The position numbers and the translations under genes are program-made. Of a stretch of 64,000 bases of DNA, positions 62,080 through 64,000 are shown piece by piece (position 1 is the stretch's first letter; every line of letters begins with the position of its first letter). The stretch is from contig JAPLFY010000117.1 of the NCBI GenBank assembly GCA_026390435.1, positions 27,181-91,180 of the forward strand, read 5' to 3'. The stretch is from Pseudomonadota bacterium. GTDB lineage: Bacteria; Bdellovibrionota_B; Oligoflexia; Oligoflexales; CAIYRB01. Under the pieces are notes generated by a model that searched no databases, was not told where the DNA came from, and saw nothing but the letters and a program-made list of their open reading frames with translations.

Positions 62080-62464
62080 TTGAGTTCCAATTTTTATCCA
62101 ACGTTCCTACCAGCTCACTTTAGAGGCGCATCAGACCGTTGCGCGCTTTCCAAAGCACCTAAGATTCGAGCTTGGGCCGCGCATCGTTGGCGGCTCTCAG
62201 GATTTTTTAGAGCGTGTCATCAAGGCCAATTTCATCCGTGATCCAAAGCTCCGCTCTGAAGCCTTGTCGGGACTCTCAGCAGGGCTCTTCACAACGCGCA
62301 TGAACATTCGTCTAGCAAGGGACCTTCGAGCAATATCACCCGGTCAAGCAGCTCAGCTAACTCTACGTCTTGAGGATCTACAAAAGCAGTTAACTGGTTG
62401 GCTTAGTTGGACTCTGTCTAAAATACAGCAAAAACCGGCATCGCCTACTAATTCAACCAGTTAA
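62080..62464 (+). pseudogene. Avd-like (DGR accessory variability determinant) four-helix-bundle gene, disrupted by a 1-nt frameshift
   Basis: One frame, from TTG 62080, reads SSNFYPRSYQLTLEAHQTVARFPKHLK up to the AAA run at 62160-62162. The +1 frame continues RFELGPRIVGGSQDFLERVIKANFIRDPKL...NIRLARDLRAISPGQAAQLTLRLEDLQKQLTGWLSW to the stop at 62464. The combined layout FPK..RF.LG.RI...LRLA.DL..IS..Q...L...L....LGGW-like matches Avd proteins. Confidence 0.5.
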
Positions 62465-62740
62465 CTCTATGCTTTGAAAGAATATCCCTAATTGCAACGA
62501 ACATGTCCCACCGCCATCCAGAGCCGAACATTTTAAGCAATCCGCTCCGGCTGTAAATGAAACACCGTTTTCTTGATTTGCGATTTATTCTTCAAACAGT
62601 TTTTGTAAGAGGCGAGAAGTTGTTGATACAGAGCCAAATCAGGAGAAAGATACTTATACACGTAGGCCTGGCCTCAAAATTGCTTAAATAAAAAATAAAT
62701 TAAATAACTGCCTGCTCGGCGACGTCGGCACCCAGCGCTC

Positions 62741-64000
62741 TCACCTCACGCACGACACGGAGAACTGATAGTACTTGCCGTAGTCGTAGGTGAAGCCGTA
62801 GGCCGGATTCACGACCCACGCGAGGCTGGTAGTGGGCGGGGAGGTCGACGACGACCAAAAATAATTCTGCATCTGCGTCGATGTTAGCCAGTTGGCATTC
62901 GATGCCGTCATCATTCCGTGCTCGTAAGCATTCATTAGCTCTTTTTGTGTTGGCAAACGCCAGCCGGTCTGATTGTTGTAAGTTAAACTGCTACAGTAAA
63001 GCAAGGCATTTACCCAGTCCTTAGTACCCGGGGATTTACTCCACCAAAGCCCGCTTACTTTGTCCTGGTAAGTGCAGTTAGCTGGAGTGCCAGAGCAGGT
63101 GCTAGCATTAGAACTTGCATCTGTGGTGACATCCTTCCAAACATTGCTGTCTCCGGCAGTCGCCTCAACTCCGGCACAGGTGTTTGTGGAGGTCCAGAGA
63201 TTGCTGTATGTGTACCCGCTGCTGGTATAATTATAATAATCATCGATTGACGAAATTGTGTTGAGAGTACCTGTGGCGTAGGCATAGATAGTCACATTCG
63301 CACCAGCCCCGGTCACGGCAACTGCCGTACCTGGTCCTGATGTTTGTGAAAGCTGAATGGTATTCGCATCCAAGAAGATGACATAATAAGTAGTGGCAGA
63401 AATCAGGCCCGTTGGTACAGTTGAATAATTAACGCGAACCGTTTGATTAGCTGTGTAGCCGTGAGACGGGACCGTTAACTGAGAGTTGGTAGTGTTGATG
63501 CTTGTTACAGCCTGCGGTGTGCCCATCGCATAAAGTGTGCTAGAGCCTTGATTACGACAATTTACGGGCAATTTACCCGTGACGCCACCAATGGTGACAC
63601 CTGTGCGGACGTTCCAAGGGTCAATCGTGCCCACCCCTGAAAGGGTGCCAGTGGCTCCAAAGATAGTGACTCCGTTAGCAATATTTGCAGCAGTGATGTC
63701 GGCATCACCAGCGTTTTGGTAGCGAGTGCCGTCAGAGCTAAACCACTCAAAGTTGGCCGCACTCTTTATCTTCGCGTCAAAAGTAGCGAGGTCAAGGTCC
63801 GCAGTCGAGTCAGCACCGGCTAGAGGATAAGTCGATGAAGGATAGCTTCCTGTCACACCAAAAAGACTCACTCCACTTTTAATTTTGCCAGCAACGAGAT
63901 TAGCGTCACCAGCGACCGTAAACTGTCTATATAGGGATGTGTTGAATGTCTGGTTACTTGTGGTCGGTGTGATCGTACCAGCATCTGTGATAGTGCCGGT
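62741..64000 (-). CDS. Surface repeat protein with C-terminal DUF1566 (C-type-lectin fold) domain; 5' end beyond the window
   Basis: ORF track gives 62741..63871, but the frame stays open to position 64000. Repeats of the type G.TIFGATGT. The C-terminus DWVNALLYCSSL...GWRLPTQKELMNAY...YFWSSST...AWVV....G........VSCVR is the DUF1566 signature. Confidence 0.7.
   Translation of the reverse strand, partial: TGTITDAGTITPTTSNQTFNTSLYRQFTVAGDANLVAGKIKSGVSLFGVTGSYPSSTYPLAGADSTADLDLATFDAKIKSAANFEWFSSDGTRYQNAGDADITAANIANGVTIFGATGTLSGVGTIDPWNVRTGVTIGGVTGKLPVNCRNQGSSTLYAMGTPQAVTSINTTNSQLTVPSHGYTANQTVRVNYSTVPTGLISATTYYVIFLDANTIQLSQTSGPGTAVAVTGAGANVTIYAYATGTLNTISSIDDYYNYTSSGYTYSNLWTSTNTCAGVEATAGDSNVWKDVTTDASSNASTCSGTPANCTYQDKVSGLWWSKSPGTKDWVNALLYCSSLTYNNQTGWRLPTQKELMNAYEHGMMTASNANWLTSTQMQNYFWSSSTSPPTTSLAWVVNPAYGFTYDYGKYYQFSVSCVR

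What the first reader, a model, noticed from the sequence alone, without database searches (positions are those of the whole stretch)
62080..64000. Probable diversity-generating retroelement remnant: frameshifted Avd next to a DUF1566 (C-lectin) protein with an A-poor 3' end
1) Two frames, joined at a 3-A run (62160-62162), reconstruct a ~128-aa four-helix-bundle protein. Its hallmarks are those of DGR Avd proteins: ...RFPKHL|RFELGPRI..., LRLARDL..IS..Q, and ending ...LQKQLTGWLSW.
2) The neighbouring convergent gene ends in a DUF1566 domain (GWRLPTQKEL...YFWSSST...AWVV...VSCVR), one of the two C-type-lectin scaffolds that host DGR variable regions.
3) Exactly where a VR would lie, the coding strand is strikingly adenine-poor, with 4 A in the 51 nt at 62810-62860 (TTTTGGTCGTCGTCGACCTCCCCGCCCACTACCAGCCTCGCGTGGGTCGTG). 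The codons just upstream are AT-rich.
4) A G/C-rich ~33-nt segment (62708-62740) follows the stop before the sequence turns AT-rich, reminiscent of an IMH-type boundary.

I find no template repeat and no reverse transcriptase in the window, and avd is frameshifted and oppositely oriented. The locus is therefore either a decayed DGR with a frozen VR, or a target served in trans by a DGR elsewhere.
Basis: partly seen in the sequence, partly recalled or inferred. Interest (0 to 1): 0.65.

Follow-up and report, generated by a model that had tools for sequence, protein, structure and literature searches.

The report
Decayed DGR copy with intact partner
This is the wreck of a diversity-generating retroelement: it keeps its hypermutated protein tip and docking sequence but has lost its template and reverse transcriptase, while an intact sister copy sits elsewhere in the same genome assembly, so it is a clear but ordinary example of a known system.

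Summary
The DGR reading is correct; one detail is wrong. Window 62084-62855 holds a gutted DGR cassette:
- a 5'-truncated avd, not a frameshifted one;
- a 41-codon stub of the reverse transcriptase (RT) gene;
- a 36-nt IMH;
- a variable repeat (VR) at the 3' end of a DUF1566/Lcl_C gene.

Contig C21 of the same assembly carries a complete sister DGR: avd, template repeat (TR), a 459-aa RT and an Lcl_C target. The window copy lacks exactly C21 1489-3044, which is the TR plus RT codons 42 to the end.

Against the C21 TR, the window VR differs at 21 of 38 adenine sites and at 3 of 77 other sites (Fisher p = 6e-10). Its IMH is identical to the IMH of C21's own target.

Sister-strain contigs carry a full cassette at the window's chromosomal site, so the window shows secondary decay.

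Trans service by C21 is mechanistically possible. Three points argue that the VR has not been rewritten recently:
- both VRs share a 6-nt length difference and a CAG/GCG difference from the TR;
- their non-adenine sites have diverged as much as the flanks;
- the target gene is frameshifted upstream.

This is a new member of a known kind, of low to moderate interest.

The parts
61987..62062 (.). Remnant of the region (part of a 165-aa ORF) that lies between avd and the IS630/TA module in sister strains
   Evidence: 100% identical to L030 4158-4233. In L030 an IS630-family element (DDE_3) sits at the point equivalent to window 61988; it is absent here.
62063..62083 (.). Junction filler of deletion 1, which removed the avd promoter, start codon and first ~6 codons. 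Ends with an in-frame TGA at 62081-62083
   Evidence: No match to L030, L027 or C21. L028, a Logan contig that is 100% identical to the window, spans this junction up to 62167. Whether L028 comes from the same sample as the MAG is unknown.
62084..62467 (+). avd, 5'-truncated: 126 open codons plus a stop, with no canonical start before 62264. Probably not expressed
   Evidence: Translation. Pfam bAvd 35.7 bits. NCBIfam DivGenRetAVD 45 bits. 94% DNA identity to C21 1047-1488 without indels. About 91% protein identity.
62468..62535 (+). Sequence downstream of avd, the beginning of the leader that runs into the TR in the intact copy
   Evidence: Collinear with C21 1421-1488.
62536..62539 (.). Junction of deletion 2. 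Relative to C21, bases 1489-3044 are missing: 145 nt of leader, the TR, IMH* and RT codons 42-459
   Evidence: blastn breakpoints. Both C21 flanks carry a GAATG-TCC-like microhomology.
62540..62661 (-). Stub of the reverse transcriptase gene, its first ~41 codons (MYKYLSPDLALYQQLLASYKNCLKNK...)
   Evidence: ORF 62533-62661. 75% protein identity to RT residues 1-44. DNA 97% identical to C21 over 62600-62659.
62662..62704 (-). AT-rich spacer between the IMH and the RT start
   Evidence: Identical to the equivalent spacer of C21 over the stretch aligned (62665-62704); 98% identical to C21 across the 62660-62719 bin.
62705..62740 (-). IMH: 36 nt directly after the stop codon, GAGCGCTGGGTGCCGACGTCGCCGAGCAGGCAGTTA. 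This is the 3' end of the TR/VR homology
   Evidence: 36/36 identical to the IMH of the C21 target. 33/36 identical to the IMH* after the C21 TR. The GGCAGTTA (VR) versus GGAAGTTA (TR) difference recurs in all three TR/VR pairs compared: C21, L030 and G007.
62744..62855 (-). Variable repeat (VR). The mutagenised part is 62760-62842, flanked by invariant GC-rich ends
   Evidence: Versus the C21 TR: 21/38 adenine sites differ and 3/77 other sites differ, Fisher p = 6.2e-10. The VR is 68-87% identical to the paralogous VR, inside flanks that are 95-98% identical.
62744..63073 (-). Lcl_C (DUF1566) domain that carries the VR at its C-terminal end
   Evidence: Pfam PF07603, E 4.3e-16, residues 310-419 of the 419-aa translation.
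62741..64000 (-). 3' part of the target gene. The frame stays open to C19 position 91612 (would-be window 64432). There a 2-nt deletion separates it from a 686-codon upstream frame that carries a lipoprotein signal
   Evidence: ORF list. Frames beyond the window. CTGACC-TGG here versus CTGACGACTGG in C21. Called as a 551-aa protein without a signal peptide, P0001.

Best explanation
**What it is.** Window 61987-64000 is a gutted copy of a diversity-generating retroelement (DGR). The ancestral cassette read: target lipoprotein gene with a C-terminal Lcl_C/DUF1566 VR, then the RT gene, both on one strand; converging on them from the other strand, avd and then the TR.

**Shown.**
- One deletion removed the TR and RT codons 42 to the end.
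- A second deletion removed the promoter, start codon and first ~6 codons of avd.
- What remains is the VR, its IMH, an RT stub and an avd open frame without a start.
- The VR carries the adenine-specific signature of mutagenic retrohoming from a TR of the type found on contig C21.
- C21 holds a complete paralogous DGR: avd, TR, a 459-aa RT with IGNLTSQ and YVDD motifs, and its own Lcl_C target.

**Inferred.**
- The window copy cannot diversify itself.
- The window VR has the same IMH and the same GC-rich 5' homology as C21's own target. The C21 RT/Avd/TR-RNA complex could therefore in principle rewrite it in trans.
- The sequence evidence suggests neither VR has been rewritten since the C21 TR took its present form. 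The most likely present state is a frozen VR on a target gene that is itself frameshifted upstream.

**My odds.**
- DGR-derived wreck: about 0.95.
- Currently frozen: about 0.6.
- Still served in trans: about 0.3.

The confidence value given for this explanation (0.6) is for the whole statement, including 'currently frozen'.
For: **The partner DGR and the TR/VR pair.**
- An own-genome DNA search with the VR finds exactly two partners: C21:3195-3405 (86% identical, a second VR) and C21:1633-1789 in inverted orientation (79% identical, the TR).
- C21 ORFs: avd 132 aa, RT 459 aa, target 510 aa.
- Family hits: RVT_1 E 8.7e-19, bAvd E 4.1e-8, Lcl_C E 1e-17.
- The best solved relative of the RT is 8ub7_A, E 2.7e-38. 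It shares the IGxLTSQxFANVY and Y(V/M)DD motifs.
- TR/VR alignment: 21/38 A sites against 3/77 non-A sites differ. Fisher p = 6e-10.
- IMH and IMH* differ at 3 positions. The IMH is identical in the two VRs.

**The deletions.**
- Window 62094-62535 equals C21 1047-1488. Window 62540-64458 equals C21 3045-4975.
- Sister-strain contigs L030 and L027 carry the full set (target, RT, TR, avd) next to the same TA pair and IucA/IucC gene. The window state is therefore derived.

**Evidence for 'frozen'.**
- Both VRs are 6 nt shorter than the C21 TR (AACAAC).
- Both VRs have CAG where the TRs of C21, L030 and L037 have GCG.
- The two VRs differ at 3/77 non-adenine sites. That matches the 2-5% divergence of their flanks, whereas ongoing rewriting from one TR would reset these sites.
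- A 2-nt deletion splits the target gene from its lipoprotein signal.
Against: **Limits of the data.**
VR heterogeneity in the population is untested, and the frozen/active call rests on a handful of sites.
- The genome is a 153-contig assembly, 95% complete.
- C21 is only 7.6 kb. Its link to the rest is a 141-bp end overlap with C92, so it is not proven that C21 and the window sit in one cell.

**Weaknesses of the 'frozen' argument.**
- VR indels opposite AAC runs and a few non-A differences also occur in DGRs regarded as functional (PMC5758913).
- The target-gene frameshift lies in a repeat-rich region where assembly errors are plausible.

**Points in favour of continued activity.**
- The C21 RT, avd and TR are all intact, which would be unexpected after long disuse.
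Confidence: 0.6

Rival explanations
1. Live remote target. The window VR is still being rewritten in trans by the intact C21 DGR. RT and Avd from C21 copy the C21 TR RNA with adenine mutagenesis, and the cDNA homes to any VR with the matching IMH, including this one. The cassette duplicate would have become a second target after losing its own machinery.
For: - The IMH is identical to that of C21's own target (36/36), and the spacer downstream of it is identical as well.
- 74/77 non-adenine sites match the TR.
- RT, avd and TR are intact on C21.
- No other TR in the assembly matches this VR.
- Non-adjacent and remote targets, and trans-complementation by avd-TR-brt, are established for DGRs (PMC5758913).
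Against: - Both VRs lack the AACAAC of the present TR and carry CAG instead of GCG, close to the IMH end.
- Divergence at non-adenine sites equals flank divergence.
- The target ORF is cut off from its signal peptide by a 2-nt deletion.
- No stable hairpin follows the IMH: z = +0.9 against shuffles.
Confidence: 0.3
2. Strain mixture or assembly artefact. C19 and C21 are versions of DGR loci from different co-assembled strains, or the TR-RT deletion junction is a mis-join. In that case there would be no decayed copy and intact partner within one genome.
For: - The genome is a fragmented assembly of 153 contigs.
- C21 is short, and its left 952 bp is a 96.5% duplicate of C75.
- The target genes contain long internal repeats, and the C21 target shows a 254-bp tandem duplication that breaks the frame.
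- The Logan contig L028 breaks inside avd at 62167.
Against: - The two copies have different flanks on both sides: TA/IucA against AbiEii on one side, and different sequence beyond window 66269 / C21 7171 on the other.
- C21 overlaps the end of the 110-kb contig C92 by 141 bp at 100% identity.
- The deletion-2 junction shares only about 8 nt of microhomology with its C21 counterparts. That is far too little for a k-mer mis-join.
- L028 reproduces the deletion-1 junction.
- The copies are 6-16% divergent, not near-identical.
Confidence: 0.08
3. Not DGR-related. The four-helix protein would be a 23S-rRNA-IVS-type protein, and the GC-rich 3' end of the DUF1566 gene would be ordinary sequence.
For: The Avd hits are below the curated cut-offs: 35.7 of 40 bits in Pfam and 45 of 80 bits in NCBIfam. 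phmmer found no solved Avd structure.
Against: - A TR with adenine-only divergence exists.
- The intact paralog of the Avd gene sits directly upstream of that TR and next to a DGR-type RT.
- The same cassette is found in a congeneric genome and in sister strains.
Confidence: 0.01

Closest known systems
DGRs with DUF1566/DUF823/Fib_succ_major targets (CLec2 VRs, target category 'd' of Wu et al. 2018, PMC5758913), exemplified by the Legionella pneumophila DGR and its lipoprotein target LdtA
   Same: - The VR lies at the extreme C-terminus of an Lcl_C/DUF1566 domain.
- The target family is a lipoprotein: the upstream frame carries a lipobox, and the relative P0060 is full length.
- Avd is the only accessory protein.
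- The TR is rich in AAC codons.
- A GC-rich IMH is paired with an IMH*.
   Different: - In the family studied here, avd-TR lies on the strand opposite to target-RT, so the two converge (C21, G007, L030). The Legionella type has all parts on one strand.
- Wu et al. note that TR and RT on different strands do occur.
- The window copy has no TR and no RT.
Non-adjacent or remote DGR targets (for example Treponema denticola with seven; 45 of 372 DGRs in Wu et al. 2018)
   Same: The VR and IMH sit away from the RT/TR that match them. Differences from the TR are almost only at adenines.
   Different: - This target is visibly a former complete cassette, with an RT stub and a truncated avd beside it. 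The route to becoming 'remote' is therefore cassette duplication followed by loss of machinery.
- Wu et al. required that a remote target not be part of another DGR, so this case is borderline.
- Small non-A differences and a length difference from the TR are shared with the cis VR.
Bordetella phage BPP-1 DGR (mtd-avd-TR-brt), the prototype
   Same: - The RT is homologous to the solved chain 8ub7_A (E 2.7e-38), with the same IGxLTSQxFANVY and YxDD motifs. The chain is deposited only as 'Reverse transcriptase'; I recognise its sequence as bRT from my own knowledge.
- An Avd-type accessory gene is present.
- IMH and IMH* differ at a few positions.
   Different: - The target fold class is CLec2/Lcl_C rather than Mtd.
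- The element is chromosomal, with no phage genes nearby.
- avd-TR and RT are convergent.
- No significant hairpin follows the IMH in this genome.
Decayed DGR cassettes noted elsewhere in this scan (e1-1251923, e1-693566, e1-3641028)
   Same: Deletions removed the RT, TR or avd and left a DUF1566-type target with a VR.
   Different: Here an intact paralogous DGR with a matching TR and an identical IMH is present in the same assembly. Sister strains also show the undeleted state at the same chromosomal site.

Membership tests
Diversity-generating retroelement (complete, autonomous cassette) | A DGR-clade reverse transcriptase gene within the cassette | tested here: not met
   The window holds only a ~41-codon stub (62540-62661). 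The rest is deleted relative to C21. The complete 459-aa RT is on C21.
Diversity-generating retroelement (complete, autonomous cassette) | A template repeat (TR) near the RT | tested here: not met
   There is no TR in the window. The only TR in the assembly that matches this VR is C21:1633-1789.
Diversity-generating retroelement (complete, autonomous cassette) | An accessory gene (avd) that can be expressed | tested here: not met
   The frame is open for 126 codons but is preceded by TGA. It has no ATG, GTG or TTG before codon 61, and the upstream region is replaced. Expression itself was not measured.
DGR target (VR-bearing gene) | The VR matches a TR with differences essentially only at TR adenines | tested here: met
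   21/38 adenine sites against 3/77 other sites differ, p = 6e-10. Exceptions: a 6-nt length difference opposite an AAC run, and GCG versus CAG.
DGR target (VR-bearing gene) | An IMH at the 3' end of the VR, paired with a slightly different IMH* after the TR | tested here: met
   36 nt at 62705-62740, 33/36 identical to IMH*. The C/A difference in GG(C/A)AGTTA is conserved in all three TR/VR pairs compared.
DGR target (VR-bearing gene) | The VR lies at the C-terminus of a C-type-lectin-like (CLec2/DUF1566) or Ig-like domain | tested here: met
   Pfam Lcl_C, E 4.3e-16, ending at the last residue. Wu et al. assign DUF1566 to category 'd'. The fold itself was not modelled.
DGR target (VR-bearing gene) | Ongoing diversification, seen as VR polymorphism at TR-adenine sites within a population | not testable with these tools
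The protein cluster of the window target has a single member. Indirect evidence points to no recent rewriting.
Remote (trans) DGR target, by the criteria of Wu et al. 2018 | A-to-N differences only (minor exceptions allowed), and the target is not part of another DGR | tested here: inconclusive
   The first criterion is met with exceptions. The second is borderline, because the target sits in the remains of its own former cassette.
23S rRNA intervening-sequence protein (non-DGR four-helix bundle) | Best family match to the IVS protein family, with no DGR context | tested here: not met
   The only hits are bAvd (Pfam) and DivGenRetAVD (NCBIfam). The intact paralog lies next to a TR and an RT.

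The most novel reading that the evidence does not exclude
The window shows how DGRs acquire remote targets. A whole cassette was duplicated, and one copy then lost its TR, RT and avd start but kept the VR and an identical IMH. A single surviving DGR on C21 would therefore now diversify two paralogous lipoprotein tips. A bolder variant: both present VRs share CAG and the shorter length, which the C21 TR lacks. The last donor for both VRs may therefore have been the window's own TR, now deleted. That would mean cross-talk between paralogous DGRs before one of them died.
Probability: 0.3. Interest if true: 0.4.

Novelty: new member of a known kind. Interest (0 to 1): 0.3.

Why it matters
The case documents DGR turnover at strain level, with the undeleted state available for comparison. 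One lineage shows cassettes of a single family at three chromosomal sites in different stages of decay:
- intact on C21;
- gutted in the window;
- reduced to a 251-bp relic on C36.

If reads showed that the window VR is still variable, this would be a natural example of a remote target arising from cassette duplication and loss of machinery. It would also show that an identical IMH is enough for trans homing in a non-phage DGR. As it stands, the finding adds no new mechanism. For annotation, the region should be labelled a DGR remnant: avd pseudogene, RT fragment, VR and IMH.

Tried and rejected
**Closed or empty searches.**
The A-run, deletion-junction and VR-polymorphism checks could not be done.
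- An exact IMH pattern in JGI metagenome contigs gave no hit.
- A VR/TR scaffold pattern with N at the adenine sites gave one hit, another TR (L037), and no further VR of the C21 type.
- Exact-protein look-ups failed for the C21 RT, Avd, AbiEii and target, and for the 175-aa version of the HTH protein. The 161-aa version worked.
- The genome-contig scan with the RT returned only the congeneric MAG OMIY01000400, titled 'bacterium isolate AM_0764'. The organism is therefore not named. Distant homologues of the target are labelled Oligoflexus sp. or Proteobacteria.
- Rfam found no family on C21.
- phmmer of the window Avd against the PDB found nothing meaningful.
- No paper in the library mentions 8UB7. 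I recognise the aligned chain sequence as the Bordetella phage bRT from my own knowledge.

**Ideas tested and dropped.**
- Hairpin after the IMH: folding gave no structure better than shuffles for this genome (z = +0.9), and only a modest stem in L030.
- The frameshift at 62160-62162 is rejected, because the motif lies in one frame.
- The other two DGRs of the genome, on C85 and C25, are rejected as donors: their TRs do not match this VR.

**Error of mine.** Alignment A4 contains a stray 1-residue row that I added by mistake. I used it only for percent identities.
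Full report
**What is in the window.** I read 61000-64000 and listed its ORFs.

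The DUF1566 call is right. The minus-strand ORF that ends at 62741 matches Pfam Lcl_C (E 4.3e-16) over its last 110 residues.

The Avd call is right in substance. The frame 62084-62464 matches only Pfam bAvd (35.7 bits) and NCBIfam 'DGR protein Avd' (45 bits). Both scores are below the curated cut-offs.

The frameshift claim is wrong. RFPKHLRFELGPRI is read in one frame that stays open for 126 codons. The real defect is at the 5' end:
- there is an in-frame TGA at 62081-62083;
- no canonical start codon occurs before 62264;
- similarity to intact avd genes begins only at about codon 7.

The count of 4 A in 51 nt is correct, but it is not the diagnostic feature.

**The missing parts exist elsewhere in the same assembly.** The window is contig C19:27181-91180 of a 4.28-Mb, 153-contig genome. 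A DNA search of that genome with 62690-62900 found two partners on the 7.6-kb contig C21:
- a second VR, 86% identical;
- an inverted copy, 79% identical, which is the TR.

C21 encodes the following parts:
- avd, plus strand, 1019-1417, 132 aa;
- an AAC-rich TR, plus strand, about 1640-1760, followed by IMH*;
- an RT of 459 aa, minus strand, 3166-1787, matching RVT_1 at E 8.7e-19;
- an Lcl_C target of 510 aa, minus strand, 4778-3246.

The best solved relative of the RT is 8ub7_A (E 2.7e-38). The two share the DGR-typical IGxLTSQxFANVY and Y(V/M)DD motifs. I recognise the aligned chain sequence as the Bordetella phage bRT from my own knowledge.

**TR/VR test.** In the three-way alignment, the window VR differs from the TR at 21 of 38 adenine sites and at 3 of 77 other sites. 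The C21 VR differs at 17 of 38 and 4 of 77. Fisher p-values are 6e-10 and 8e-7.

The 36 nt after the stop codon (62705-62740) are repeated after the TR with three differences. They are identical in the two VRs, which makes them an IMH/IMH* pair. The difference GGCAGTTA (VR) against GGAAGTTA (TR) recurs in the sister-strain DGR L030 and in the congeneric genome G007.

Between the two paralogous loci the VR is a local island of divergence. It is 68-87% identical, inside flanks that are 95-98% identical.

**The window copy is a gutted cassette.** blastn gives two collinear blocks:
- window 62094-62535 equals C21 1047-1488 (94%);
- window 62540-64458 equals C21 3045-4975 (84.5%).

The window therefore lacks C21 1489-3044, which is the TR, IMH* and RT codons 42-459. 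A 41-codon RT stub survives at 62540-62661. The junction shows short microhomology.

A look-up of the neighbouring 161-aa HTH antitoxin retrieved contigs of sister strains. L030 and L027 carry target, RT, TR and avd beside the same TA pair and IucA/IucC gene, plus an IS630-family element. The complete cassette is therefore the earlier state at this site.

Relative to L030, the window also lacks the stretch from inside a 165-aa ORF to the first codons of avd. The Logan contig L028 is 100% identical to the window and spans that junction. Whether it comes from the same sample as the MAG is unknown.

The window's VR, IMH and avd 5' part are of the C21 type, not the L030 type. The two copies in this genome are therefore paralogs or were exchanged by recombination.

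**Architecture.** In C21, G007 and L030, avd-TR lies on one strand and target-RT on the other, so the two transcription units converge. This is uncommon but documented: Wu et al. [quoted passage not shown] The same paper places DUF1566 targets in category 'd' (CLec2, Legionella type). It also reports non-adjacent targets in 45 of 372 DGRs.

**Frozen or served in trans?**

For trans service:
- the IMH and the spacer downstream of it are identical to those of C21's own target;
- 74 of 77 non-adenine sites match;
- the C21 machinery is intact.

Against recent activity:
- Both VRs are 6 nt shorter than the C21 TR. The TRs of L030, L037 and G007 have the shorter form, so the C21 TR appears to have gained AACAAC.
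- Both VRs carry CAG where the TRs of C21, L030 and L037 carry GCG, about 25 nt from the IMH.
- The two VRs differ at 3 of 77 non-adenine sites, the same level as their flanks. Continual rewriting from one TR would keep those sites identical.
- Beyond the window's end, a 2-nt deletion separates the VR-bearing frame from the 686-codon frame that carries the lipoprotein signal. The C21 target is also broken as assembled, by a 254-bp tandem duplication.

Caveats:
- Indels opposite AAC runs and occasional non-A changes also occur in DGRs regarded as functional.
- The repeat-rich gene body is prone to assembly error.
- I could not look at reads.

I put the frozen state at about 0.6 and live trans service at about 0.3.

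**Is DGR activity real in this lineage?** Two sister-strain target proteins, P0003 and P0019, are 92% identical overall. About 15 of their 26 differences fall in the last 37 residues. Diversification has therefore occurred in relatives.

Decay is also common in the lineage:
- The RT of L030 has an in-frame stop at codon 59. The resulting 397-aa gene call is frequent in its cluster.
- Contig C36 of this genome keeps only a 251-bp piece of the RT gene next to tdh. A sister strain has RT-TR-avd at the same junction.

**Verdict.** This is a well-documented decayed member of a known system, with an intact paralog in the same assembly. It is not a new mechanism.

Noticed in passing
Own genome, contig C36:1578-1828 (locus L022): A 251-bp relic, 98% identical to C21 1891-2141 (RT residues ~341-426). 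It lies between a TA-like gene pair and tdh/kbl. Sister-strain contig L038 has RT-TR-avd at the same tdh junction. This is a third, almost erased, site of the same DGR family.
   Followed up: partly
Own genome, C85:1-1593 (locus L023) and C124:5937-6071: A second, distinct DGR.
- The RT is 435 aa, 40% identical to the C21 RT, with an IGSLTSQ motif.
- An AAC-rich TR lies at about C85:155-262, on the strand opposite to the RT.
- A matching VR ends a gene on C124 (...GNGYGYGNAYAVRCIVP).
- Inside the homology block the mismatches visible in the printed alignment are all at TR adenines (not tallied separately for the block), plus a 3-nt indel opposite an AAC run.
   Followed up: partly
Own genome, C25:10057-11600: A possible third DGR. 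It has an Avd-like ORF (26% identical to the C21 Avd) and then an RT with an IGNLSSQLFANFY motif. A TR-like stretch follows (GGNWNNGANDGVFAANLNNAPSNVNTNIGFRCA), which to my eye looks like the FGE-sulfatase/CLec1 type. No VR was sought.
   Followed up: no
L030:1354-1680 (sister-strain contig ERZ27247875 k141_1175037): The RT at the window's orthologous site in sister strains has an in-frame stop at codon 59 (KPLK*NIFVV, where C21 has PIKSNIFVV). The gene is called as 58 aa plus 397 aa. The 397-aa form is common in the 90% cluster, so this copy may be disabled too.
   Followed up: partly
C19:91605-91612 (would-be window 64425-64432, beyond the window end) and L009:4779-5229: Both VR-bearing target genes of this genome are interrupted as assembled.
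- The C19 copy has a 2-nt deletion (CTGACC-TGG against CTGACGACTGG).
- The C21 copy has a 254-bp tandem duplication.
- Relatives (G007, P0060) have uninterrupted lipoprotein ORFs.

The breaks could be real decay or repeat-induced assembly error.
   Followed up: partly
Window 61988 versus L030:4234-5354: Sister strains carry an IS630-family element (DDE_3 transposase, 345 aa) between the DGR and the TA pair, at the point equivalent to window 61988. It is absent from the window.
   Followed up: partly
Window 61009-61895: A toxin-antitoxin-like pair (100-aa ORF plus an HTH_31 protein) directly flanks the DGR remnant. The other two sites of this DGR family are also next to TA modules: AbiEii on C21, and a small two-gene, TA-like pair on C36 that was not run against Pfam.
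   Followed up: no
C75:1-273 and at least 10 other contigs of the genome: A ~270-bp multi-copy repeat, 77-98% identical in at least 10 contigs. It lies next to the AbiEii gene whose 96.5% duplicate forms the left end of C21. It is probably the end of an insertion sequence or another mobile element.
   Followed up: no
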